From contig SIBK01000015.1 in NCBI GenBank assembly GCA_009695205.1, positions 859 to 64,858 of the forward strand: a DNA stretch of 64,000 bases, in the 5' to 3' direction. This document shows, piece by piece, positions 3,201-57,374 of the stretch (its first letter is position 1; each line of letters starts with the position of its first letter). The stretch is from Pedosphaera sp. (GTDB lineage Bacteria > Verrucomicrobiota > Verrucomicrobiia > Limisphaerales > UBA9464). The translations under genes and the position numbers were made by a program. The notes beneath the pieces are model-generated. The model was not told where the DNA came from, ran no database searches, and was given only the letters and a program-made list of their open reading frames with translations.

Positions 3201-3275
3201 GACCGGTCAAAGTAAACGCGGCGATCGCGGCGATCGCAAGCCACCATTTGCAGCCACCATTACCTGACGTGTCCC

Positions 3276-10711: not shown

Positions 10712-12379
10712 CTACTTCGCGATTGGCGCCACGATTCTCGAAGCCGCGTTCCTTTGATGGAATACCGTGTTCACCGCCGTGACAGGATTCGTGGGAAAAT
10801 CCAAAGTCAGGGGCTCACCCGTCTGTGGATTCGGCTCAAAGAATGGGGCTCCCGTGCTCGCAATCGTCACTCGAATTCGGTGGCCTCGATTGAAGATCTG
10901 ACTCAACGATCCCACATCAAATTGCATGCGTGTCGGCTGGCCCGGAATCAATAATTCCTGCCGTTCCCACCCATTTCGGTATCGCGCTCGTCGAACGTAG
11001 TCGATGATCAGGATGCTCCTGCCATCGGGATAAACATCCGTAATGCGCACGATGAAATCTGTGTCCCTGGCGGTCGAAGCCATCCAGAGATCGGCCCGGA
11101 CCTTGCCGGTCCATTCAACCGGATGTTCCAGCAGGGGTGTTGTGAAAGTTCTGACTTCGGATTGCTTTTCAAAAGCGCCCGCATCCCGCGCTCCCGGAAA
11201 ACTGGTGCCCGGAATTTCCATCGGATGAAGCGGGTCGCTGCGGTAGGTGGTGACCGAATCGACCAATGCCGGCCTTTCCGTTCCCAGACCGCCTCCGCCT
11301 TGCAGAAAATAAACGCTCTCCTTTGTCTCGACTGGCCAGTCTTTTGCCGTTCGCCAGACGTTTCCAGGCGCGCCGTCCTCGTTGATCGCCCCCATTGTAT
11401 AATAACGGACGGAAGGCTCGTTTTCGATGCCGTTGTCGATCCCTTTCAGCCAGTGATCGAACCATCGGATCATGTGAGTTTGTGTGTCGAATTTCGCGTT
11501 TTCTGGATAAACCATTTCTCCGATCCGGTTCGATTTCGGCAATCCGCCATGCAGCCACGGTCCAAGAAGGAGTTGTTGTTTTCCTCGGGAACCGGGCCCA
11601 CCTCGGTGCTGCCGACCAACGAAACTGTCGATGCTGCCAACGGACATAAAGTCATACCAACTGCCAACGGTGAAGCAGGGGACATCCATCTTGCCGAAGT
11701 GAAGCGAGCAATCTTCATCCCGCCAGTAAGAATCGTACTCGGGATGCCGGAACCACTCAGCCAACAGTGCCCGGTTATCGACCGGATTGCGCGCGACCTC
11801 GTCCATTTTCTTGAACCGTTCCGGCCGGGTAATGCCACCGATGCGATAGCCTTCCTGAAAGAGGCTGAGCCCCGTGTCGGTCATGTATTGAGCCACGAGA
11901 TGTGGCGGTTGTGTCACGGCCAAAAAATTCTGGGCGAAACCACCCTGCGACCCGCCGAAAGTCCCGACCTTGCCATTGCTCCAGGGCTGAGCACCCAACC
12001 ATTCGCAAAGGTCCCAGCCATCTTTGAGCTTTCCCCAACCCAGCGCCCGGTAGCCCTGCCAAACTCCTTCTGAAAGCTGAGCGCCTCTGAAACTCGCGCG
12101 CGCCGCCACGTAGCCATGGCGGGCAATATCAGCCAGTTCCTTGCGGGATGCGGTGTTGGTGATTACCGCATAACGCTGTTCAAAGAGAACCGGCCAGGAT
12201 CCTGATCCGGGGGGGAAATAGAGATAGGCAGAGAGTCTTGTGCCGTCCCGCATCGGGATCATGACGTGTTCTTCACGAACACCACCCAGGTCGAGCGGGA
12301 CCAACTCTTGGGCTGCGGCAGATAGAATTCCAACGGCAAGTGTCAACAAAGAGATGAACGATTTCATGGACAGGGCCAA
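10712..12379 (-). CDS. CocE/NonD family hydrolase (S15 X-Pro dipeptidyl-peptidase-like)
   Basis: Signal peptide, DGTRLSAYLYFP, nucleophile elbow GTFGGSQGG, and a C-terminal beta-sandwich ending ...HRIRVTIASTGAPFFEPNPQTG. Confidence 0.8.
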   Translation of the reverse strand: MALSMKSFISLLTLAVGILSAAAQELVPLDLGGVREEHVMIPMRDGTRLSAYLYFPPGSGSWPVLFEQRYAVITNTASRKELADIARHGYVAARASFRGAQLSEGVWQGYRALGWGKLKDGWDLCEWLGAQPWSNGKVGTFGGSQGGFAQNFLAVTQPPHLVAQYMTDTGLSLFQEGYRIGGITRPERFKKMDEVARNPVDNRALLAEWFRHPEYDSYWRDEDCSLHFGKMDVPCFTVGSWYDFMSVGSIDSFVGRQHRGGPGSRGKQQLLLGPWLHGGLPKSNRIGEMVYPENAKFDTQTHMIRWFDHWLKGIDNGIENEPSVRYYTMGAINEDGAPGNVWRTAKDWPVETKESVYFLQGGGGLGTERPALVDSVTTYRSDPLHPMEIPGTSFPGARDAGAFEKQSEVRTFTTPLLEHPVEWTGKVRADLWMASTARDTDFIVRITDVYPDGRSILIIDYVRRARYRNGWERQELLIPGQPTRMQFDVGSLSQIFNRGHRIRVTIASTGAPFFEPNPQTGEPLTLDFPTNPVTAVNTVFHQRNAASRIVAPIAK

Positions 12380-12493
12380 TAGGCGCGGGGATCGCGACCG
12401 ATGGTGTGGACCCTGAGCAATCCACGCAACACTTAGTGTCGTGTCTGACCACTGCCGGTGACCCGTGCGCGCTTGGATTGGAGTCGATCCATT

Positions 12494-13762
12494 TCATGGA
12501 GTTTCTTTCAAATTCTGGGATCGAAATTCTGGCAACGGCCGCAGCGGTCCCATGACAAACAAGACGAGGCTCGCCGCGATAAGCGGCATGATGCCGCAGG
12601 CGATAAACACCGGCGTGTAACCGTATTGATCGATCACCCGCCCGCTCAGCCAACTGAACAGCATCCCGCCGAAACCGGAACCCATGCTGGCCAGGCCCCA
12701 GGCGGACGCGACCATGTTCTTCGGAAACACATCCGGTGGAAACGCCAGCGCGTTGCTGTTGTATCCGGTGTAGCCAAACGTCGCGACCGAGATCCACGCC
12801 ACCGACGCCCAGACGTTCGTGACCAGGATGGCCGGGATGGCCGAGGTCATCAGCAAGGCGAAAATGGCCACCACCGTTTTCCGCGCCCGGGAGCTCGGCA
12901 TGCCGTTGCGAATGAGTCGGCCCGTCAGCCAGCCGCCGACGAGATTGCCGAGGTCCGCAGTCACGAATGGAATCCATGCTGTCATGCCGATCTTGGCGAG
13001 ATCGAAGCCGTGAACACTCTTGAGATATTGCGGAAACCAGAAGATGTAAAAATACCAAACGGGATCGAGAAATACTTTTGAGAGCGTGAGCACGCCAAGA
13101 AACCGTGTGCGCAAAAGGCGCCATGGAGTTACCGACCGCGCGGTCACTTCGGCCTGCACAGTTGCCGGCGTGCGATACACCAACCACCACACTGCCAGCC
13201 ACACGTAGCCCGTAAGGCCAACCACGATGAACGCCGTCTGCCAGCTGAATCGCAGCGCCAGCCAGGCGACCAGTGGCGGGGCGATGATCGCCCCAATGGC
13301 GGCGCCGCTGTTGAAGATTCCCGCCGCCAGCGCCCGCTCGCGCGCGGGGAACCATTCGGCCACCACCTTCACGCCCGCCGGCCAGTTGCCGGCCTCGCCC
13401 ATGCCCAGGAGAAAACGAAAACCAGCAAGCGACCAGGGCCCAGTCACAAGCGCGTGCAGAATACCGGCGGTGGACCACCACGCCATGCAGAGCGCGTAAC
13501 CGAGCCGGGTGCCGAGGCGGTCGAGCAGCAGTCCCGACACACCATTCGAAACGGTGTAGGCGAGCATGAACGCGGACAGCACGTAGCCGTAAGCCTCGTT
13601 GCTCATCTTGAACTCTTCGCGCAACGCCGGCGCGACCACCGAGAGCGTCTGGCGATCGAGGTAATTGATGATCGTAGCCACCAAAGCAAAACTGATCATC
13701 ACCCAGCGCAAGCGCGAGGGGCGGGCAGTGTCAGAAGTTGGGTGAGTGGTGGACAACTCCAT
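12494..13762 (-). CDS. MFS transporter (hexuronate transporter ExuT-like)
   Basis: 422 aa with NYLDRQTLSV, GMGEAGNWPAGVKVVAEWFPARERA and 12 TM-like spans. Confidence 0.85.
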   Translation of the reverse strand: MELSTTHPTSDTARPSRLRWVMISFALVATIINYLDRQTLSVVAPALREEFKMSNEAYGYVLSAFMLAYTVSNGVSGLLLDRLGTRLGYALCMAWWSTAGILHALVTGPWSLAGFRFLLGMGEAGNWPAGVKVVAEWFPARERALAAGIFNSGAAIGAIIAPPLVAWLALRFSWQTAFIVVGLTGYVWLAVWWLVYRTPATVQAEVTARSVTPWRLLRTRFLGVLTLSKVFLDPVWYFYIFWFPQYLKSVHGFDLAKIGMTAWIPFVTADLGNLVGGWLTGRLIRNGMPSSRARKTVVAIFALLMTSAIPAILVTNVWASVAWISVATFGYTGYNSNALAFPPDVFPKNMVASAWGLASMGSGFGGMLFSWLSGRVIDQYGYTPVFIACGIMPLIAASLVLFVMGPLRPLPEFRSQNLKETP

Positions 13763-19059: not shown

Positions 19060-20544
19060 TCAGGCGCCGAGCTGCTTTTTGATTTCCTTGAGCTGCGCAA
19101 ACTCCGGCCGCTGGGTGTAAAACTTGTCGAGCGGGTAGCAGCCGCTGATGAGGCCGTTGCGCGGTGCCGTGGTGCAGTCGCTAAAAGTCCGGCAGACGAA
19201 CTTCTTTCCCACCGGTTTGCCCGCGATGGCGTCGGTGAGCATGGACGGATACGAGAGCGCCGCGCGCCCGAGACCGATGGCATCCGCCCATCCCTGCCGT
19301 ACCACGGCGGTGGCGACGGGCGCGAGATACTCCTGCAGATACGTGTAGCCGGAGCCGATGACAAAGAGCCCCTGTGCCGCGCGCGCTTTCACCTGGCGCA
19401 CGGCTTGAATCTGCCGCGCCACATCAATGATCGGATCATACGCTGGCTGGTAGCCATCGCTCGGTGGGAATGCCGCCGGCCGTTGCAGATGCGGTGTGTA
19501 GTAGGGCGAACCCGCGGTGGTGTTCAGCACCTTGATGCCCAGCTCGCCGCAGAGCGCCACGAACATATGGGTCTCCGTGAGGTCGATTTCTGTCGGATCC
19601 TCCGGATTCACGCCGAATCCGTAGCGATACGGCAGGCACGCGGAAAAGTCCTCCGGGATGCCAGGGCCGAGCTTACCCGGTTGGGCGCGGGCGGGATCCG
19701 GCCGGTGCGGTACCTTGTCGAAAAGGCTCAACCGCACGCCGAAGTTGATAGGATTCCCGTCGGCGCGAATGCCCACGATGACCTCGCGCAGGATGCGGGT
19801 GCGGTTTTCGAAACTGCCGCCATACCTGCCCGGTCGAGTGTGCGCGCCGAGAAATTCATGCAGCAGATAGCCGTGGCAGTGTTTCAGATCCACGAAGTCC
19901 GCGCCGACTTCCCACGCCACCCGTGCCGCGCGCACGTAGTCCGCGATCAATTCCTCCACCTCGGCATCGGTAAGCACCTGCTCATCGCTGGCGACGTTGA
20001 ACTTCCGGTCAAGAAGCGGATGACGAAAGGCCACCCGCGATTCCCAGCGGGCTCTGTCGTGTGGCCGGCAGAAGCGCCCGGAGTGCGTGAGTTGGAAGCC
20101 GATCACGAGATCGTCCGTCGTGCCGTAGCGCTCCGTGTGGGCGCCTTTCAGGATGCCTACCAATTCCGCGATGCCCGCCTGGTTCTCCTCCGTGATGACG
20201 AGCTGGTTCGGATTTGCACGACCCTCAGGACACACGGCCATGGCCTCGGCACCGCCGATCATTTTGGCCCCGCTCTCGCCAAAGCGCCGCCAGCGCCGCC
20301 GCATCTCGTCGCTCACCCCTCCCGTAGTCGTGCCGTCCCAGCCTTCCATCGGATGAATAACGATGCGGTTGCCGGGACGTTTGCCGTTGATCAGGACCAC
20401 CGCGGGCTCCCCGAGCGGCGAGGGACTCCCCGCAAACGCCTCGACCGGAAGGTCAATGCCGATTGAAGCGCAGGCTTCCTGGAATTCCGCCAGCGACTTC
20501 AGAGCTCCGAGACGGACAAAGGAAGAAGGTGTATGTGTGCTCAT
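19060..20544 (-). CDS. NADH:flavin oxidoreductase (Old Yellow Enzyme-like)
   Basis: Motifs HSGRF, LKHCHGYLLHEFL and GGSFENRTR. Confidence 0.8.
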   Translation of the reverse strand: MSTHTPSSFVRLGALKSLAEFQEACASIGIDLPVEAFAGSPSPLGEPAVVLINGKRPGNRIVIHPMEGWDGTTTGGVSDEMRRRWRRFGESGAKMIGGAEAMAVCPEGRANPNQLVITEENQAGIAELVGILKGAHTERYGTTDDLVIGFQLTHSGRFCRPHDRARWESRVAFRHPLLDRKFNVASDEQVLTDAEVEELIADYVRAARVAWEVGADFVDLKHCHGYLLHEFLGAHTRPGRYGGSFENRTRILREVIVGIRADGNPINFGVRLSLFDKVPHRPDPARAQPGKLGPGIPEDFSACLPYRYGFGVNPEDPTEIDLTETHMFVALCGELGIKVLNTTAGSPYYTPHLQRPAAFPPSDGYQPAYDPIIDVARQIQAVRQVKARAAQGLFVIGSGYTYLQEYLAPVATAVVRQGWADAIGLGRAALSYPSMLTDAIAGKPVGKKFVCRTFSDCTTAPRNGLISGCYPLDKFYTQRPEFAQLKEIKKQLGA

Positions 20545-27712: not shown

Positions 27713-29910
27713 ATGCTGTTTCTCTTGCTATCTCTTTCCATTGCCTGCCAAGCCCGGGCCGCGGAAGCTCTCGGCACCTTTGACGGACGGTCCGATATCG
27801 GCAGACCGTCGCGCCCCGGATCGATCGAAATCGACAGCGTCGCCCAAACCTACCGGGTGACCGGTGGCGGTGCCAACATGTGGTTCACGAACGACGCCCT
27901 CCATTTCGTCTGGAAAAAGGTCTCGGGAGATCTGTCGCTCTCCGCAAATCTTGAGTTCCTGGGCAACGGGTTGGATCCCCACCGCAAGGCGTGCCTGCTG
28001 ATCCGCCAAAGCCTGGACAGCAATGCCGCTTACGCGGATGCGGCATTGCATGGAGATGGTCTGACCTCGCTTCAATACCGCGAAACCCAAGGTGGGCCAA
28101 CTCGCGAAATCCAGTCAAACGTCAGGAGCCCGACCCGGCTGCGACTCGAGAAGCGCGGGCATTATATCTCCATGTCGATCGCACGCGCCGGGGATTCTCT
28201 GCAGCCCGCCGGCGGTTCCATTCGCCTGGTCCTAAACGAGCCATTCTATGTTGGCCTGGGAGTTTGCGCCCACAACGACACCACCCTTGAAACCGCCGTC
28301 TTTTCCCAGGTGGAACTTACCGCCAGCCTGGACCAATCGCTGACGACAAACTCGAAACCCCGCGTCATCAGCACGCGCGCTGGGGCTAACCTGTTTCGGC
28401 AGCAGATTCAACCCGTGCTCCGAGAGTTCTGTTTTGACTGCCATGCAGAGGGCGCCCGCAAAGGAGGAGTTGCCTTCGATGAGTTCAATTCCGACCAATC
28501 CATCCTGGAAGATCACAGCCTGTGGTTCAAGGCCTTGAAAAACGTCCGGGCCGACGTGATGCCCCCTGCAAAAAGCCTCAGCCAAACGCAACGAAACGCG
28601 CTCATATTGAAGCATGGATCAAATCTGCTGTCTTCAAGGTCGACCCGGAGAATCCGGATCCCGGACGTGTCACCGTGCGCCGACTGAACCGGGTCGAGTA
28701 CCGGAATTCCATCCGTGATTTAATTGGCGTCGACTTTAATTTAGAGGCCGAATTTCCGGCGGACGACATCGGGCACGGTTTCGATAATATCAGCGATGTT
28801 CTCACGCTCTCGCCGATGCTTTTGGAGAAATATCTCAACGCAGCGAAAGCCGTGGTCACTCGGGGAGTGCCTGCTGTTCCGCGAATTCCGGCGGAGGAAA
28901 TAATCGAAGGCCACCGGTTTCACTCCACCACAAGCCTTTCTCCGGCTGAAGGCATATCCATCGATCAATTCATCGCCCGTCAGGTGGGTCATCTCACCCG
29001 GTTTCCGTCTCTTGAACTTGCGAGCGACGCCACCCGCGGTTCCGGTGCGTGCGACTCCGGCTACGCGTGCGCCTATCAGTACAATATTTCGTGGAGTTCA
29101 CCGACCACTCCCCGGTCTCCGGAAACCAATCTACGCCTGCTCTTCGAACGTCTTTTCGGGGCAGGCGCACCCGGGCAACGACAGGAAAACCTGAAACGAC
29201 GTCAGCAAGAACAACGCTCCGTTCTCGATTTCGTGCTGGAGGACGCCCGCAGAATGCAGCGCCGGCTTGCCCCCCGCGACAACGACAAACTTGCCCAATA
29301 TCTGAACGGAATCCGCGAGGTCGAAACTCGTATCGAACGGGCCGAGCAGTTCGGGGAAATCCGCGATCCCATTATCGATACACCGGCTGGAATCCCGTCA
29401 GACCGTGCGCACTACGTTCAATTGATGTTCGATATGATGGTGCTCGCATTCCAGACCGATTCCACCCGGGTCGCCACCTTGATGCTGGGTCACGATGGCG
29501 ACAACCGGTCTCTCTCGGAAATCGACATCGCCGAGGGCCATCATGACCTTTCCCATCATTTCAACGACGCCGGCAAGATTCAGAAGATTTCTGAGATTGA
29601 TCACTGGTATGTGGAACAATTCTCACAGTTCCTCCAAAAGCTCAGGGACACCCCGGATATTGATGGCCAATCTCTGTTGCACAATTCTGTGGTGCTATAC
29701 GGCAGCGGCAACGCCGATGGAAATAAGCACACGCACTCAAACCTTCCGCTGATCCTGGCGGGCGGAGGAGGAGGAATGATCACCCTCGGTCGCTATCAAC
29801 GCTACGGCTCACAGCCCGCCAGCAACCTTTTCTTGAGTCTGGCCGATCGCATGGGTGTGACCGGATTGGAACGGTTCGGAGATTCCACGGCCCGGCTCGG
29901 CGACATTTGA
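27713..29910 (+). pseudogene. frameshifted chimeric gene: signal peptide, ConA-like domain, PSCyt-like CxxCH, DUF1587, then the C-terminal ~2/3 of DUF1552
   Basis: ORF 27629-28687 carries the signal peptide MLFLLLSLSIACQARA, a TGGGANMW lectin-like domain and CFDCH. It overlaps ORF 28522-29910 in the -1 frame, which carries PGRVTVRRLNRVEYRNSIRDL...GFDNISDVLTLSPMLLEKYL (DUF1587). That ORF continues with GISIDQ...HLTRFPSLEL...CDSGYACAYQYNISW...FERLFG...QTDSTRVATLMLGHDG...GHHDLSHH...NLPLILAGGGGG (DUF1552). The frames join at the A5 run 28570-28574. Confidence 0.7.
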
Positions 29911-30756: not shown

Positions 30757-31059
30757 TCAGCGGGATTCCAGGATCCGAGGCGGACCGGCAAATCGCCGGC
30801 ATTCCCAGCCAAACCAGACGGCCAACATGACTCCTGTTGTCCCGCCCACAACGCCCACCGCGTGCGCCTCGGGAGGGGTGAGGCCAAAGGCTGCCACTGC
30901 AAAATCATAGGCTCCCCCGTTGATCGCGCCGAGAACCGTGACCAGACCCGCCAGGTTTAGCCATGCGGTAACCCAGCCACACGCTCTCCCACCCAAAATG
31001 GAGCTCCAATGATACAGCCCACTCGACGCCAGGACACTCTTTCCGCCACCGCATCTCAC
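30757..31059 (-). pseudogene. fragment of an APC-family amino acid permease
   Basis: ...SGLYHWSSILGGRACGWVTAWLNLAGLVTVLGAINGGAYDF... corresponds to the TM2-TM3 region of APC permeases. About 100 of roughly 500 codons remain. Confidence 0.5.
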
Positions 31060-32210
31060 AAAACCTCCCGATACAACTGACGGAATTCAGCCGCCATAAC
31101 GGGGACCGCATTGGTCTTGTGGCACGGATCTTCCACCGCCTGCGCCACCAATGCCTCCAGTTGTTCCGGTTTCACACCGTGCTCCCGAAGACGCGTATTC
31201 AGGCCAAGGTCGGAAAGGAAGGCTCCAATGAACTCAATGGTGAGGCGGTCCGCTTCCTCCGCCGGACATTTCAGAACCTCGAGTCCGCACGCGGTTCCCA
31301 CCCGTCGGTATAGACCTGGCTTATGCCGGGCACAGAACTTCATGCCGGCCACCAGGCACAGGGCGTTTGCCAACCCGTGGTGCATGCCACACAGGGTGGA
31401 AAGGGGATGAGCCAGCGAGTGCACAACACCCAGATCTTTCTGGAATGCCACCGCCCCCATCGCCGCAGCCGCCAGCATGTGACCCCGCGCCTCGAGATCA
31501 GCCCCGTTCCGATACACCCTTGGCAAGGCTTCGATCACCAGCCGCACACCCTCCAGTGCAATACCATCACACATCGGATGGAAAGCCGGGCAGGTATAGG
31601 ACTCGATGCAATGGGTCAGCGCATCGGCTCCCGTCGCCGCCGTCAGCTTGGGCGGCAGGCCTGCCGTAAACTCCGGATCGAGAAGGACCCAGTTCGCCAG
31701 CAACCCCGGCGTGAAGAGCACCGCCTTGCGTTTCGTGGCCGTAAGCGTAATGACTGAACTTCGCCCCACCTCGCTCCCCGTTCCCGCCGTCGTCGGAATG
31801 CAAACGCAGGGGGCAAGCCCCGACCAGTCGTCATCCCATCGAAACTCCCCGAGCTTCAAATCCAGCCTCTTGAGAAGCAACCGAATAGCCTTCCCAACAT
31901 CCAGTGCGCTGCCACCGCCGAAGGCGATGACACCGTCGCATCCGTGCCGACGATAGGCTTGCGCACCCGCCGTGACATCCGGTTCCAGCGGATTCGGATG
32001 GACCCCGTCGAAGAGAAACCAGCTCCTGCCCTGCCCCTCCCCTCCCAAAGCCTCTACCAGCAGTGCAAACGCGGAGGTCGGAAGCAGCCCCGGATCGGTC
32101 ACAACCAACGGGCGCCGAATACCCAGACTAGGAAGCTGAGTTGCCAGTTCGCGGCGAGCGCCGATTCCATAGAGTGTCCGGGTCGGAAAGGAAAAAGAGG
32201 CAAGACTCAT
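31056..32210 (-). CDS. iron-containing alcohol dehydrogenase
   Basis: MSLASFSFPTRTLYGIGA...VIAFGGGSALDVGKAI... plus His-rich metal-site motifs (HSLAHPLS, CGMHHGLANA). Confidence 0.85.
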   Translation of the reverse strand: MSLASFSFPTRTLYGIGARRELATQLPSLGIRRPLVVTDPGLLPTSAFALLVEALGGEGQGRSWFLFDGVHPNPLEPDVTAGAQAYRRHGCDGVIAFGGGSALDVGKAIRLLLKRLDLKLGEFRWDDDWSGLAPCVCIPTTAGTGSEVGRSSVITLTATKRKAVLFTPGLLANWVLLDPEFTAGLPPKLTAATGADALTHCIESYTCPAFHPMCDGIALEGVRLVIEALPRVYRNGADLEARGHMLAAAAMGAVAFQKDLGVVHSLAHPLSTLCGMHHGLANALCLVAGMKFCARHKPGLYRRVGTACGLEVLKCPAEEADRLTIEFIGAFLSDLGLNTRLREHGVKPEQLEALVAQAVEDPCHKTNAVPVMAAEFRQLYREVL

Positions 32211-32446
32211 TGGGCCACCCTCTCGGAGTGGACCGCCACAGGGCAATTCAAAAACTGAAACATGCCCCGGGTTCTCCGCAAAATGACCGCTGCTTAGCGA
32301 CGGTGGGGGGAAGAATAGTAGCCAGGCGCCGCGGCCGATCGACGATCGAGCTTGCGGGTCGCCTTAAGTCGGACCTGCCGCCGACGGGTGGGGATGATGA
32401 CGACGGAGCCTTCTCCGTAACCAGCCATCATGATCGAGTTCAGCTC

Positions 32447-33798
32447 CTAGTTGTCCACCGCCGCGCCGACGAGCTGCCGAAATTTCCAATCCGTGTCGTC
32501 GTTACCGCCCTGGGTTTGTTTCATCAGGATACCAACGATTTTCTCCTTGGGATCGGCAAAATATTGCGTATTGAAGTAACCGCCCCATTCAAACGTGCCG
32601 GCACTGCCCTGACCGCCTCGCCCCACGCCTTTCTCCGTCACCACACCGAACGCGAGGCCGTAATGCGAGTTGCCGTCTCCGAACAGATCACCGGTTTGAT
32701 TGCGCATCAGTGTGTCAATCGTCGTGCGGCTCAGAATGCGGACGCCGTTCAGCTCGCCGCCGTTGAGATACATCTGGAGAAACGTCGCGTAATCCTTTGC
32801 GGTGCTGCACAAGCCGGCGCCGCCCGAGAAGAAGCGCTTCGCGCCTTTGATCGGGTAGTCCGGGTCGTAAAACGTCACGGGGTAACGCACCCACTTGCCA
32901 CCCTCGGGTTTTTGAACACTGACGAGGCGACCGGCCTTTTCCGCGGGCAGATAAAAGCCCGTGTCATTCATCCCGAGCGGCGTGAAGAGGTGGTCGCGCA
33001 GGAAGACATCGAATGGCTTGCCCGAGACGATCTCGATGAAATAGCCCAGCACGTCGAGCCCTTCGCTATACGTGAACTTCTCGCCGGGCTGATGATGAAG
33101 CGGCAGCTTGGCCAGCTTCTTGACGCTTTCACCAATGGTCACCGACCCGGTCGTGAACAAATCCGTGACGCCAGCCTTGGCATAGATCTTCTTGAAGCGC
33201 TCATCGCCGTCGATCACGCCGTAACCGATGCCGGACGTGTGTGTGATCAGATGCCGGAGGGTGATGGGTTTGCTGGCGGGCTCGGTGGTCCACGTCATGT
33301 CGGCGTCGTTAAACGTCTTCAATACTCCGGCATCCTTGAATTCGGGAATCCACTTCGAGATCGGATCATCGAGCTGAAATCGCCCTTCCTCCCATAAGAT
33401 CATCACCGCCGTGGACGTGATCGCCTTGGACTGCGACGCAATGCGGAAGACGTCGTCCCGCTTGAGCGCACGGCCAGATTCGTTGTCCGCCAAGCCGAAC
33501 GCCCGATGATAAACGATCTTGCCATTGCGCGCCACGAGGGCGACCGCGCCAGGAATGCGATCCTCCTTGATCGCGGTGCCAATCCGCGGTGCCAATCCGC
33601 GGTGCCAATCCGCGCCAACCGCTCGGCGGACATCCCGGCCCGCGATGGCGACGCCTCGGTCAACGGACGCGAGCGTTGGGTGGACTTGGTTTGCGGATAC
33701 CCAGCTACCGGCGCGAAGGACAGTACGGCCGACAATGTTAGAAGGACAGTTCGCGATGACATTGCCGCTACGCTAACAAGTCGCGAGCCGAATGTCAT
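32447..33798 (-). pseudogene. secreted serine hydrolase (beta-lactamase/PBP4-like family), split by a 26-nt repeat expansion
   Basis: The N-terminal ORF (from 33798) has a signal peptide followed by ...GMSAERLARIGTA. The main ORF (33595-32447) reads ..IGTAIKEDRIPGAVALVARNGKIVYHRAFG...SQSKAIT (SxxK). The two frames differ by the 26 nt contributed by two extra 13-nt units. Confidence 0.75.
33572..33610. repeat. perfect 13-nt x 3 tandem repeat (cgcggtgccaatc) inside a CDS
   Basis: Read directly from the sequence: units at 33572-33584, 33585-33597 and 33598-33610, followed by a degenerate partial unit cgcgccaac. Confidence 0.9.
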
Positions 33799-34022
33799 TC
33801 TCAGGAATGGGAGTCACGGCGGACCGCAGTTCTTCGCGAATATCCGCGTAGCCGTCCGCAGAGTCCGCGTCGATCCCAACGACAGCGCCGGTGGATTTCA
33901 CTTCCTCAATTCAAGAGAAAGAAGGCGGATGACGCATCAGGAACGAGGGTGCCCGCCTGAAAAGCAAAAGCCCCTGGAGAAATGCCAGGGGCCGTCCGTT
34001 CTCTTGGAATTGAGTCAACTTA

Positions 34023-49519: not shown

Positions 49520-50200
49520 TCAGATCCGGTTTGTTAGCGGAACGTTTGACGCGCTCATTGTCCTTCGGAGGGCCCAGCGGCATTCGGCTGCGGTCGGCCA
49601 TGCTTCGTTCTTGACCGTCGTCAGCGACCCGGCCAATGACTCGGAAATCAGGCTGCGATAGGCATGATTGAAACCGCCGACCTGCGTCGGTTCCAACCGG
49701 ATGCTTTGCTCAAAACTCACACCACCGAGGGATCGTGTATAGGCACCGCGCAGCCACAGATTAGTCAAAGGCGTCCAGACGACGCCTGCCTTGGGCGATG
49801 CTTGCGAGCTCCGGTCGGTGGCGGCGCTCAGGGGGCTCGCGCGGAAGTTGACCGGATACTTCAGCGTGTCGTAACTAAGACCGAGCGTCAGCGTCAGAGT
49901 TTGCCAAGGCCGAACGGTGTCGTAGACGTACCCTTGGATTCGCTCTGCCATGGGCTCCACGTGTGCGTCAAAGGGAGCAATCCTTGCGGGCAACTGGGTG
50001 AATTCGTTCTGCGCTTCGATCTTGCCCTGCTGATACCGCAATCCAGCCACAAAGGAATTAACCTCCGTCTCCCAGAGGTGTTGTGCCTCGGTCGTCAACC
50101 AGTTCTCCTGACTCATGTAATTCTGTTTGAGCGGGTCGAGCGGAAACGCAGCGCCCATAGGAAACACGCCTAGGCCACGTAATTGGAGAAGGCGCGCCAC
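49520..50200 (-). pseudogene. fragment of an outer-membrane beta-barrel protein (TonB-dependent-receptor-like C-terminal strands)
   Basis: ...SPKAGVVWTPLTNLWLRGAYTRSLGGVSFEQSIRLEPTQVGGFNHAYRSLI... It has no signal peptide, plug or terminal strand. Both ends overlap neighbouring ORFs. Confidence 0.4.
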
Positions 50201-50649
50201 GTCGCCGGCCCGTCATAACTGTGAGGCAACCACTCGATGCATTCGCGGTAGTGAAACCTCTCTTTCGTCCCGTCGAATACAACTCGGGCATTCGCCGCCG
50301 AGATCAGTGTATAAAGCAGCAGGAAGACCGTCAGCCACGCGAGTGCCCGCGTCAGCTGTTCTGCGATCCGCATCCGTTCGGGCGTGCGCGCACCAAACGT
50401 TTCCCACTCGGGTGGTCGATAGCCAAGGCGACGTCGGATCAGGAATTTCGAGAGAAGCAAAACGCCAAGGCCGTAGCCTGCGGCATTCATGACGTTCATC
50501 GCCCAATCGTCCGTCGTACCGAATGCCCACGGAGTAAAGACGATCATGAAAAGCAAAAGGATCTCTGTCGCGAGATCGGATCGCGCGTGCGCTGCGGGGG
50601 GGGCATTCCGACGGCGAGCGCACGGGCATGTCTCGGGCCGATTCCGCAT
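50170..50649 (-). pseudogene. N-terminal fragment of an O-antigen-ligase-like (Wzy_C family) membrane protein
   Basis: ...EILLLFMIVFTPWAFGTTDDWAMNVMNAAGYGLGVLLLSKF...GYRPPEW...NARVVFDG...HYRECIEWLPHSYDGPATW resembles the first ~150 residues of the long PVC O-antigen-ligase-like proteins. It is then cut by a stop. Confidence 0.4.
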
Positions 50650-51152
50650 CGAAACCGGTAGCTTCGCTCGGTGCTGACATGTGCTTTAGGGAAGAGCCGT
50701 GTCGGGAACGTCGCAAATCGATGAGGGGTCAGTCAATGGTATTGTACTATTTTCCGCCAACCTTCCACTCCCTCGCGAGTAACGCAGGTGTTCTCCGCGT
50801 ATTGGCAGGATCGGTTGCACTGAGCTCCCACGAAAAGTGCGATCGGATTAATCGGCTCATTTTCTGGAAAACAATCCGTTGAACCCCGCGAGAGTCAGGT
50901 TTTCACGGCCCCGGCCAGGGTGCCGGTGATGGTTCGCGGATACTCGAATCTGGTGGCTAGCGGCATCCGGAGGAGAGCATCCACCGAACTCAAAATGCGC
51001 GCTGTGAAGCCATGAATCGTTGTTGAGATGAGGGTTGCGCGGACTTCCGTCCGCGACTACGACGGTCCGGTTCATCGGTTGGGCTAGCGCGGAGTTGAGG
51101 TTTCGAGGATTCGTTCTTCATACTGAGATCGAATCGCGTCACATTGCTTCCC

Positions 51153-51437
51153 ATGAAGTCTGCTTTTGAGCTTGCGATGGAACGGTTGAGTCAAGGTGCT
51201 CCGACGAAAACGTTGACGGCTGCGCAGAAGAAGAAACTGGCTGAGATTGACTCGATCTGTCGGGCCAAGACTGCGGAGAAGGAACTGGGAATGCAGGATG
51301 AAATGGCTGCGGCACGAGCCGCTGGTGACGGAGAAAAGCTCCAGAAAATTCGCAGCGGGTTTGCTGTGGAAAAGGAGAAATTGGAAGCGGATCGCGATGC
51401 AAAAAAGGCACGCGTGCGGGGCGATAAAGCGAATTAG
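51153..51437 (+). CDS. hypothetical small coiled-coil protein
   Basis: 94 aa, charged and helical (MKSAFELAMERL...KLAEIDS...EKEKLEADRDAKKA). No family recognised. Confidence 0.4.
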   Translation: MKSAFELAMERLSQGAPTKTLTAAQKKKLAEIDSICRAKTAEKELGMQDEMAAARAAGDGEKLQKIRSGFAVEKEKLEADRDAKKARVRGDKAN

Positions 51438-56738: not shown

Positions 56739-57374
56739 CTATTTCTTATCGTCCTTCTTCGCGTCCTTCTTTTCTTCCTTCGGTTTGAGGGCATCCGCGG
56801 GAGCCGACGCGTTCATTTGAGTGAGGACGGTTTCGGTGAGATCGTTTTCACCGTTGGTGTAGATGAAGACGGGAGCGACGTTGGCCGACATCGCGCCGCT
56901 ATCGAGGACGGCGGTGAAGTTGCCCGCCTTCCCTTTCTCGGTCACGACATCCTGAATTTCGCGGAGGATGGCGTCGCGCATGCGGCGCAGTTGCTCGCCG
57001 AGAGAACGATTGCTGGTTTCATCGAAGTCCCGGATGCTGCGTTGGATCGTCTGCAATTCCGTGAGTTTCCGCTGGGCTTCCTTGGTTCGCTTCTCCTTTT
57101 CCTCGGCGGAAATGGCGGGGTCCGACGTTCCGTCCACCATCTTCCGGTATTCGTCGTTTGACTTGTTAAAGTCATCTTCAAGGGTTCGGCGGGATCTCTC
57201 AAAATTGGCCTTCGACTCCTGCATTCGGTCGTTGGCCTGCCGAGTCTTGTAGTATCCATCGAAAACTTTTTGCAAGTTCACGAGGGCAAACTTTGTCTCC
57301 GCCTGGGCGGCGGTTAGCCAAAGGGCGGTGAGGGCGGTGAGGGCGGATTGGATCCAGTTTCTTGTGATGCTCAT
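56739..57374 (-). CDS. skp: OmpH/Skp family periplasmic chaperone
   Basis: Signal peptide, ...FALVNLQKVF..., coiled-coil, and a position upstream-adjacent to bamA in the usual bamA-skp order. Confidence 0.8.
   Translation of the reverse strand: MSITRNWIQSALTALTALWLTAAQAETKFALVNLQKVFDGYYKTRQANDRMQESKANFERSRRTLEDDFNKSNDEYRKMVDGTSDPAISAEEKEKRTKEAQRKLTELQTIQRSIRDFDETSNRSLGEQLRRMRDAILREIQDVVTEKGKAGNFTAVLDSGAMSANVAPVFIYTNGENDLTETVLTQMNASAPADALKPKEEKKDAKKDDKK

What the first reader, a model, noticed from the sequence alone, without database searches (positions are those of the whole stretch)
33572..33610. 13-nt x3 perfect tandem repeat splits a secreted beta-lactamase-family hydrolase right after its signal peptide: a candidate slipped-strand ON/OFF switch
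The plus strand reads cgcggtgccaatc three times in perfect tandem, then a degenerate cgcgccaac. On the coding strand the unit is gattggcaccgcg.

The upstream ORF (33798 downwards) encodes a signal peptide and ...GMSAERLARIGTA, then drifts out of frame (DWHRGLAPRSRR...). The main ORF restarts inside the repeat as APRIGTAIKEDRIPGAVALVARNGKIVYHRAFG...SQSK.

Removing two units (26 nt) joins them in frame to ...GMSAERLARIGTAIKEDRIPGAV..., the canonical N-terminus of this family. Because 13 is not divisible by 3, copy numbers 1 or 4 give ON and 2 or 3 give OFF, which is the logic of contingency loci. The units are still identical, so the expansion is recent or actively maintained. Phase variation by a 13-mer in this phylum would, to my knowledge, be unusual.
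Basis: seen in the sequence. Interest (0 to 1): 0.7.

Follow-up and report, generated by a model that had tools for sequence, protein, structure and literature searches.

The report
Young frameshift from slipped 13-nt repeat
A secreted esterase/beta-lactamase-type gene in an uncultured Verrucomicrobiota-like bacterium was recently broken by a replication-slippage accident that triplicated 13 bases and lost 12 others, which looks like an ordinary young pseudogene and not an evolved on/off switch.

Summary
The repeat is real. Window 33572-33614 holds 3.3 perfect copies of a 13-nt unit, the only non-triplet perfect tandem tract in 64 kb. It splits a PF00144 serine hydrolase gene after its signal peptide.

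The key supporting claim is wrong. One unit does not restore the canonical N-terminus. 151 of 152 related loci, and the crystal-structure homologue EstU1, have exactly 12 residues between RLxxI and IPG. The window would have 8 residues with one unit or 21 with four. At DNA level the window is +14 nt against its nearest relatives, having gained two units and lost the 12 nt encoding I-E-T-A.

No relative carries the repeat, and the 13-mer occurs nowhere else in the window. dN/dS is 0.058, like essential neighbours, so the break is recent. A neighbouring gene pair is independently decayed.

Best reading: a young loss-of-function allele made by slippage at clustered CGCG microhomologies. It is mechanically unstable, but nothing shows it is an evolved contingency locus. 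Population heterogeneity could not be tested, because no other assembly of this population is public. Interest is low.

The parts
33572..33610 (-). Three perfect tandem copies of GATTGGCACCGCG (coding strand). Relatives have one copy-equivalent here.
   Evidence: relatives
33611..33614 (-). CGCG microhomology just 5' of the array on the coding strand (the 0.3 extra copy). It is identical to the last 4 nt of each unit and is the likely slippage anchor for the first duplication.
   Evidence: same flank GGTTGGCGCG in L001
33571..33572 (-). Junction between the last unit and ATCAAGGAG. The 12 nt (ATCGAAACCGCs, encoding I-E-T-A) present in the nearest relatives are missing here.
   Evidence: DNA of L001, L004, L005; protein spacing
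33694..33762 (-). Probable true start (ATG, M13 of the listed ORF) and Sec-type signal peptide MSSRTVLLTLSAVLSFAPVAGYP. Orthologues start at the same MSSR.
   Evidence: No signal-peptide predictor was run; this is read from the sequence and the alignment.
33403..33798 (-). Upstream ORF (131 aa). The genuine N-terminal part ends in the first unit; after that it is an out-of-frame tail (DWHRGLAPRSRR...) running to a stop at 33403.
   Evidence: no Pfam hit
32447..33571 (-). Body of the serine hydrolase (PF00144, family VIII carboxylesterase / class C beta-lactamase-like) in the other frame. It is listed as a 382-aa ORF from a TTG at 33595 inside the repeat.
33425..33436 (-). Catalytic S-x-x-K motif (SQSK), intact.
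   Evidence: invariant columns S113 and K116
33969..33993 (-). Terminator-like hairpin (9-pair stem, 7 GC, T tail) after the upstream EF-P gene. It suggests the hydrolase gene is its own transcription unit.
   Evidence: consensus scan only

Best explanation
This is a young loss-of-function allele of a secreted family VIII carboxylesterase / beta-lactamase-fold serine hydrolase, made by replication slippage.

The segment encoding the first helix of the mature protein was already a degenerate 12/13-nt repeat in the ancestor: ...GCGCG GATTGGCACCgCG ATCGAAACCGCs ATCAAG..., i.e. R-IGTA-IETA-IK, with CGCG/ACCGCG microhomologies spaced 13 and 12 nt apart. Misalignment at these microhomologies added two extra 13-nt units (+26 nt) and removed the 12-nt IETA segment. 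The net change is +14 nt.

As a result, translation from the signal peptide runs out of frame after ...ERLARIGTA and stops after 131 codons. The catalytic domain is left in another frame with no signal peptide and no evident ribosome-binding context.

Shown: the sequence change relative to orthologues, the frame consequences, the absence of the repeat in relatives, and the recency of the break. Inferred: slippage as the mechanism, the order and number of events, and loss of function.

Because three identical units are themselves slippage-prone, the array will probably keep gaining and losing units. That is a by-product of the accident, not an evolved switch.
For: Repeat and frames. The nearest relatives (92-93% aa identity, same AspRS/EF-P/hydrolase synteny) have 25 nt where the window has 39. 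The 12-residue spacing RLxxI-(12)-[IVL]PG holds in 151 of 152 loci from several phyla and in PDB 4IVI, so both in-frame copy numbers are non-canonical. There is no 13-nt duplication at this site in any relative, and the apparently short homologues are intact upstream. Recent origin: dN/dS is 0.058 against 0.042-0.074 for AspRS, EF-P and ABC-2 at dS of about 0.48, and there are only 2 conservative private changes at sites conserved in 97% or more of sequences, against a family median of 1 and maximum of 4. The unit is bounded by CGCG microhomology, as in microhomology-mediated tandem duplications, which can fix as 'higher copy repeats' (PMC8639346). Independent gene decay lies next door. It is the only non-triplet perfect tandem tract in 64 kb; the other four have period 9.
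Against: No reads and no second assembly of the same population were available, so fixation versus heterogeneity is unknown. At least two, and probably three, slippage events at one 40-nt site in an otherwise pristine gene point to locally elevated instability, which is also what a dynamic switch would show. Loss of function is inferred and not measured. The 4-aa-shorter one-unit allele might have been functional in this lineage. The tract forms a moderately stable ssDNA hairpin (-20.8 kcal/mol, z=-2.1), consistent with continued slippage.
Confidence: 0.72

Rival explanations
1. Assembly, polishing or consensus artefact, or a minority variant captured by the assembler. The real dominant allele would then be in frame, either canonical or with one unit.
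For: The nearest relatives are all MAGs, so the source may be an uncultured-population assembly. A second frameshift nearby sits next to a short A run (GCAAA-AAGCC), a context where sequencing errors are common. The population could not be cross-checked.
Against: A 39-43 nt tract is shorter than typical reads and assembly k-mers, and a perfect 26-nt gain plus a 12-nt loss is not a usual error mode of any platform (my own knowledge). Most long ORFs checked in the window match Pfam domains end to end, for example AlaRS, BamA, CstA, AspRS and MFS, so the assembly is not generally riddled with indels.
Confidence: 0.12
2. An evolved or selectively maintained slipped-strand phase-variation (contingency) locus. 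Unit number toggles export and production of the hydrolase, with 1 or 4 units ON and 2 or 3 OFF.
For: The frame arithmetic is correct. The units are perfectly identical, the tract is at the 5' end of a gene for a secreted protein, several events have hit the same site, the rest of the gene is intact and was under strong constraint, and the tract can form a hairpin.
Against: The repeat is absent from all 152 related loci. Neither ON state restores the invariant helix length. There are only 3 copies of a 13-nt unit, whereas SSR phase variation is described for short motifs (1-6 bp in PSSRdb) with repeat-number thresholds. No second such tract exists in 64 kb. The review criteria of reversibility and a rate detectable without selection are untested, and the review warns against calling accidental mutation-prone tracts evolved phase-variable loci. 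Ordinary decay lies next door.
Confidence: 0.06
3. The gene is still expressed despite the frameshift, either by programmed -1 ribosomal frameshifting in the overlap or by internal initiation at TTG 33595 giving a leaderless cytoplasmic enzyme.
For: The two frames overlap for about 190 nt (33595-33403), so a -1 shift anywhere there would give a full-length product. A TTG opens the downstream ORF.
Against: There is no X XXY YYZ slippery heptamer in the upstream frame. No Shine-Dalgarno-like sequence precedes the TTG (read). Every homologue checked upstream encodes the signal peptide in frame. A -1 shifted product would carry a scrambled first helix.
Confidence: 0.03

Closest known systems
Microhomology-mediated tandem duplications (MTDs), described genome-wide in S. 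pombe with comparison to E. coli (PMC8639346)
   Same: A short segment bounded by a few bases of GC-rich microhomology (here CGCG, 13 nt apart) is duplicated in tandem. It disrupts a reading frame, is intrinsically revertible by slippage, and can occasionally fix as a 'higher copy repeat'.
   Different: Here there are three copies and not two, combined with loss of an adjacent 12-nt segment, so precise reversion to the ancestral sequence is no longer possible by unit loss alone. Neither reversion nor subclonality was observed here.
Spontaneous tandem duplications inside pneumococcal capsule genes (cap3A, cap8E, tts) causing high-frequency phase variation (Waite et al. 2001 and 2003; seen as references 33 and 28 of PMC4022640; the details are from my own knowledge)
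   Same: Gene inactivation by a de novo tandem duplication inside an ORF, without a pre-existing evolved repeat tract. In principle it reverts by precise loss of the duplicate.
   Different: In pneumococcus, both directions of switching and the phenotypes were demonstrated, and loss of the duplicate restores the wild-type sequence. Here nothing was measured, and the one-unit form lacks four conserved residues.
Classical simple-sequence-repeat contingency loci of Haemophilus, Neisseria, Campylobacter and Helicobacter (PMC11868660; PSSRdb PMC3013739)
   Same: A non-triplet tandem repeat near the 5' end of a gene for a surface or secreted protein, where unit number sets the reading frame.
   Different: Those tracts have short units (1-6 bp in PSSRdb; up to about 9 in my recollection) and many copies, are conserved as tracts among strains with varying length, occur at many loci per genome, and their ON states encode the normal protein. 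None of these holds here.
The lacI CTGG x3 frameshift hotspot of E. coli
   Same: Three tandem copies of a non-triplet unit inside a gene act as an accidental hotspot for gain or loss of one unit without being an adaptive switch.
   Different: A 4-nt unit in a wild-type functional gene. Here it is a 13-nt unit in an already disrupted gene.
Family VIII carboxylesterases / class C beta-lactamase-fold serine hydrolases, such as EstU1 (PDB 4IVI/4IVK) and EstB (1CI8)
   Same: The orthologue P0001 matches 4IVI at E=3e-71 over residues 30-411. The S-x-x-K motif is present and the N-terminal helix spacing is identical.
   Different: The window's copy is frameshifted and its substrate is unknown.

Membership tests
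SSR-mediated phase-variable / contingency locus (criteria of PMC11868660 section 6) | Switching is caused by mutational variation at this single locus, with variants seen in a population | not testable with these tools
   Only one sequence of this population exists in the searchable collections. No reads are available.
SSR-mediated phase-variable / contingency locus | Reversible switching in both directions | not testable with these tools
   This needs cultures or deep sequencing. Unit loss cannot recreate the ancestral sequence, because the 12 nt encoding IETA are gone.
SSR-mediated phase-variable / contingency locus | Switching rate detectable without selection (about 1e-5 or more) | not testable with these tools
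Three copies of a 13-mer would be expected to be at best borderline (inference).
SSR-mediated phase-variable / contingency locus | The repeat tract is conserved among strains and relatives, with varying unit number | tested here: not met
   None of 152 related loci has a tandem duplication of this sequence at the site. The nearest relatives have one unit-equivalent followed by ATCGAAACCGCC.
SSR-mediated phase-variable / contingency locus | The in-frame (ON) state encodes the normal protein | tested here: not met
   One unit gives 8 residues and four give 21 between RLxxI and IPG, against 12 in 151 of 152 loci and in PDB 4IVI. Whether the abnormal forms are active was not tested.
SSR-mediated phase-variable / contingency locus | Short unit with many copies; several such loci per genome | tested here: not met
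   The unit is 13 nt with 3.3 copies, and it is the only non-triplet perfect tandem tract in the 64 kb window. The rest of the genome was not available.
Microhomology-mediated tandem duplication (PMC8639346) | The duplicated segment is bounded by a microhomology pair that is present once on each side in the unduplicated sequence | tested here: met
   CGCG precedes the array and ends each unit. The relatives L001 and L004 carry GCGCG-GATTGGCACC-(A/G)CG.
Microhomology-mediated tandem duplication | The unduplicated state is seen in relatives or ancestors | tested here: met
Microhomology-mediated tandem duplication | High reversion rate, subclonal frequency | not testable with these tools
   No reads or population data.
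Beta-lactamase-fold serine hydrolase (PF00144; family VIII carboxylesterase-like) | Full-length match to the family profile and the S-x-x-K nucleophile motif | tested here: met
   PF00144 E=1.7e-72 over profile positions 9-326 of 329. SQSK lies at 33425-33436. The orthologue matches 4IVI at 3e-71.
Beta-lactamase-fold serine hydrolase | Secreted: an N-terminal Sec signal peptide contiguous with the domain | tested here: not met
   A signal-peptide-like N-terminus exists but is in a different frame from the domain. In orthologues the two are contiguous. No dedicated predictor was run.
Pseudogene | The reading frame is disrupted relative to intact orthologues | tested here: met
   (tblastn splits the gene into frames -1 and -2).
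Pseudogene | Signs of relaxed constraint (raised dN/dS, changes at invariant sites, further lesions) | tested here: not met
   dN/dS is 0.058, like the neighbours. There are 2 conservative private changes and no other stops. So if it is a pseudogene, it is very young.

The most novel reading that the evidence does not exclude
The array is a contingency locus caught at birth. An accidental microhomology-mediated duplication created a perfect 13-nt x3 tract that now expands and contracts fast enough to toggle production of an exported hydrolase. The 1- and 4-unit forms would be tolerated because the N-terminal half of helix alpha-1 is dispensable. This would be a rare view of how a phase-variable gene originates, with an unusually long unit, in an environmental Verrucomicrobiota-like lineage where SSR phase variation has, as far as I know, not been described (I did not search the literature for this).
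Probability: 0.06. Interest if true: 0.5.

Novelty: new member of a known kind. Interest (0 to 1): 0.15.

Why it matters
As it stands, this matters little. It is one more example of a short tandem duplication that frameshifts a non-essential gene, useful mainly as an annotation note: two ORFs make one recently broken hydrolase gene.

It is a clean natural illustration of clustered microhomologies in a coding helix producing a compound slippage allele (+26/-12 nt). It also shows why 'remove the extra units and it is in frame' is not enough to infer a switch; the in-frame product has to be compared with orthologues.

If read or strain data later showed unit-number heterogeneity and active in-frame forms, it would become an interesting case of a nascent phase-variable locus with a 13-nt unit in an environmental bacterium.

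Tried and rejected
(1) Exact-protein look-ups meant to find other assemblies spanning the repeat. AspRS was found only on one 7.7-kb ENA contig that starts at AspRS and has no DNA held. The 382-aa ORF, the 131-aa ORF and EF-P were not on record.

(2) A metagenome DNA pattern with variable gaps, meant to catch 1-5 units or the ancestral form, gave 0 hits. The protein-based metagenome scan reached only 87% identity at best, and the genome scan 92-93%. So copy-number heterogeneity is untestable here.

(3) Recurrent-hotspot idea. Homologues of 379-391 aa starting at MIETAI or MSxERL looked like independent breaks at the same site. Their DNA shows an open, in-frame upstream signal peptide or a contig end, so this was rejected.

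(4) -1 programmed frameshift: no slippery heptamer.

(5) Old pseudogene: rejected by dN/dS and the conserved-site counts. The 'bla_up/bla_down' lines came from an index bug and should be ignored.

(6) Dispersed repeat or mobile element: the 13-mer occurs only in the array.

(7) RNA gene on either strand: no Rfam family and no tRNA in the window.

(8) The structure prediction of the one-unit form was only moderate (mean pLDDT 64). I used it only to place the site in helix H58-69, not to judge function. No fold search was run.

(9) timed out and was rerun.

(10) Overlapping same-strand ORF pairs elsewhere were mostly a real gene plus a spurious ORF.

Full report
OBSERVATION. The minus (coding) strand at 33610..33572 reads GATTGGCACCGCG three times without a mismatch. 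It is preceded by CGCG, so Tandem Repeats Finder reports 3.3 copies at 33572-33614, 100% matches, score 86, the highest in the window. An independent scan found only five perfect tandem tracts of 18 nt or more in the 64 kb. The other four all have period 9, so they are frame-neutral. None of 200 second-order Markov simulations produced a tract with three or more copies at period 7 or more; the longest simulated tract was 29 nt against 43 observed. The 13-mer occurs nowhere else in the window at up to one mismatch. So the repeat is real and non-random, and it is the signature of a duplication event and not of a dispersed element.

THE GENE. The repeat lies in a gene of the beta-lactamase fold (PF00144, E=1.7e-72, profile 9-326 of 329). 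JGI names its homologues 'CubicO group peptidase (beta-lactamase class C family)'. The closest solved structures are family VIII carboxylesterases: EstU1 (4IVI) at E=3e-71, then 7PP3, 7UDA and EstB 1CI8. The catalytic S-x-x-K motif (SQSK, 33425-33436) is intact. The gene is split into two ORFs. The upstream ORF (33798..33403, 131 aa) has its likely true start at ATG 33762, where orthologues begin MSSR. It encodes a signal-peptide-like N-terminus and ...GMSAERLARIGTA, then goes out of frame. The 382-aa ORF (33595..32447) holds the whole domain. The upstream EF-P gene ends in a strong terminator-like hairpin (33993-33969), so the hydrolase gene is probably a separate transcription unit. No Rfam family or tRNA lies in the window.

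FRAME ARITHMETIC. Rebuilding the gene with 0-6 units shows that 1 and 4 units give uninterrupted ORFs of 441 and 454 aa, and all other numbers truncate.

THE ONE-UNIT FORM IS NOT THE ANCESTRAL PROTEIN. A search with the one-unit protein returned thousands of homologues. The top 120 are 72-93% identical and mostly 433-446 aa, and where named they are Verrucomicrobiota, Limisphaerales or similar. In an alignment of 27 of them, every sequence has four residues that the one-unit form lacks: ERLARIG-TTIE-TAIQED (P0001)...ARID-xMIE-TAI.... I then extracted the site from 164 loci fetched from genome and metagenome collections. Of the 152 in which the motif could be recognised, 151 have exactly 12 residues between RLxxI and [IVL]PG, across Verrucomicrobiota, Bacteroidota, Planctomycetota and Acidobacteriota. 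I take the single outlier (42) to be a pattern over-reach, though I did not inspect it. EstU1 has the same spacing. The window would have 8 residues with one unit and 21 with four. A moderate-confidence model (mean pLDDT 64) places the site inside the first helix of the mature domain, H58-69, just before strand beta-1.

DNA-LEVEL HISTORY. The nearest relatives are L001/L002/L007 at 93% amino-acid identity, L005 at 92% and L004/L006 at 88-89% (best-segment tblastn; the BLASTP table gives 89% for P0002). L001 and L002 share the AspRS/EF-P/hydrolase synteny. They read GCGCG GATTGGCACC(A/G)CG ATCGAAACCGCC ATC(C/A)AGGAG, which is 25 nt where the window has 39. So the window allele is +14 nt: two extra 13-nt units gained and the 12 nt for I-E-T-A lost. 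The ancestral stretch was itself a degenerate 12/13-nt repeat (IGTA/IETA) with CGCG or ACCGCG microhomologies 13 and 12 nt apart. Each step is therefore a textbook slippage event: a duplication between CGCG...CGCG, a further unit gain once two identical units exist, and a deletion between ACCGCGATC...ACCGCsATC. The order and number of events are inferred and cannot be resolved. The tract can also form a moderately stable single-strand hairpin through the CCGCGG palindromes created at unit junctions (-20.8 kcal/mol, z=-2.1), which is consistent with continued slippage.

AGE OF THE LESION. Against L001, the gene (with the repeat collapsed for alignment) has dN/dS 0.058 at dS 0.48. That is indistinguishable from AspRS (0.069), EF-P (0.074) and the ABC-2 permease (0.042). 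At positions conserved in 97% or more of 76 homologues, the window has 2 private and conservative changes (I to V, I to L), against a family median of 1 and maximum of 4. There are no further stops or frameshifts. The gene was therefore under normal purifying selection for essentially all of its divergence, and the break is recent.

IS THE SITE A RECURRENT HOTSPOT OR A CONSERVED SWITCH? No relative has a duplication of this sequence. Seven close homologues of 379-391 aa start at MSxERL or at MIETAI, exactly at the site, and looked like independent breaks. For the three I fetched, the upstream DNA is open in the same frame and encodes the signal peptide (L165, L167/L168) or the contig ends (L166). 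They are start-codon calls, not lesions.

CONTEXT. Comparison with L001 shows that 3.5-5 kb from the repeat, a DUF1592-type PSD gene (845 aa in L001) carries a 1-nt deletion near 28573. It is then joined at residue 216 to residue 148 of the following DUF1552 gene, which implies a deletion of about 2.35 kb. This is a plain pseudogene produced by unrelated mechanisms. Other long genes tested in the window are intact, so the assembly is not generally error-ridden.

COULD THE POPULATION BE EXAMINED? No. The window's own genome is not among the GTDB species representatives (best 92-93%) or the JGI metagenome contigs (best 87%). The protein database holds nothing above 93%. Exact look-ups of the flanking and fragment proteins failed, except for one AspRS-bearing ENA contig that stops short of the gene and has no DNA held. 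A variable-gap DNA pattern found nothing.

MECHANISM AND RIVALS. The best explanation (0.72) is a young loss-of-function allele from compound slippage at clustered microhomologies. This matches the general phenomenon of microhomology-mediated tandem duplication, which is frequent, rapidly revertible, mostly subclonal, and sometimes fixed as higher-copy repeats (PMC8639346). It also resembles the spontaneous intragenic duplications that switch pneumococcal capsule genes (Waite et al., cited in PMC4022640). An assembly or consensus artefact (0.12) cannot be excluded without reads, but the change is not a typical error mode. An evolved contingency locus (0.06) fails every testable criterion: conservation of the tract, a normal ON product, unit size and copy number, and multiplicity. 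Its remaining criteria, reversibility and a rate detectable without selection (PMC11868660), are untestable here, and the same review warns against calling accidental mutation-prone tracts evolved phase-variable loci. Recoding or internal initiation (0.03) lacks a slippery site and any visible ribosome-binding context.

VERDICT. This is an ordinary, recent frameshift allele of a known mutational kind, and interest is low. What keeps the novel reading alive at a few per cent is the evidence of repeated slippage at one site in an otherwise pristine gene. Read-level data would settle it.

Noticed in passing
window 28379-29907 (+): Decayed gene pair. The DUF1592/PSD-type gene (845 aa in relative L001) has a 1-nt deletion near 28573 (GCAAA-AAGCC against GCAACCAAGCC). 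It is fused at residue 216 to residue 148 of the downstream DUF1552 (HXXSHH) gene, implying a deletion of about 2.35 kb near 28930-28950.
   Followed up: yes
window 31056-32246 (-): An iron-containing alcohol dehydrogenase gene (PF00465 plus PF25137) sits between the hydrolase and the ABC-2 permease gene. In the syntenic relatives L001 and L002 those two genes are adjacent, so this is an insertion here or a loss there.
   Followed up: partly
window 33694-33696 (-), residue P35 of the listed ORF: The residue just before the conserved Q-T-K-S of the mature N-terminus (the presumed -1 position of the signal-peptidase site) is Pro in the window. It is Ala in 79 of 86 related loci, Ser in 5, Gly in 1 and Pro in 1. 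This might shift or impair signal-peptide cleavage.
   Followed up: partly
window 49520-51430 (-): About 1.9 kb with only short overlapping ORFs. One 226-aa ORF (49520-50200) has a partial TonB-dependent-receptor barrel match (PF00593 positions 103-242 of 436), and the other fragments have no Pfam hit. It may be a degraded receptor gene or a small barrel protein.
   Followed up: partly
window 3217-3237, 12826-12843, 20283-20300, 57322-57346: Every other perfect tandem tract of 18 nt or more in the window has period 9, which is frame-neutral. This is consistent with selection against non-triplet duplications in coding DNA. Their coding status was not checked.
   Followed up: no
L005 (CAMDJH010000053.1) and L002/L007 (CAMAUY010000058.1): The two nearest genomes are lake-style MAG records titled 'Akkermansia muciniphila'. 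Their gene content (PSD/DUF1552 pairs) and their relatives point to a different, environmental Verrucomicrobiota lineage, so the organism name in those records is probably wrong.
   Followed up: no
L165 1501-2640, L167/L168 1501-2673 (proteins P0106, P0112; also P0084 on L166): Database proteins of 379-390 aa for this family are N-terminally truncated gene calls. The signal peptide is encoded in frame upstream, so the start codons were miscalled (or, for L166, the contig ends).
   Followed up: yes
window 12273-13481 (-) against 12494-13762 (-): Two ORFs of more than 400 aa overlap for about 1 kb in different frames on the same strand. Only 12494-13762 has a family match (MFS_1), so the other appears to be a spurious long ORF.
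   Followed up: partly
window 33584-33602 (unit junctions): Each unit junction creates a CCGCGG palindrome, and the tract folds as ssDNA at -20.8 kcal/mol (z=-2.1 against shuffles). This could favour further slippage.
   Followed up: partly
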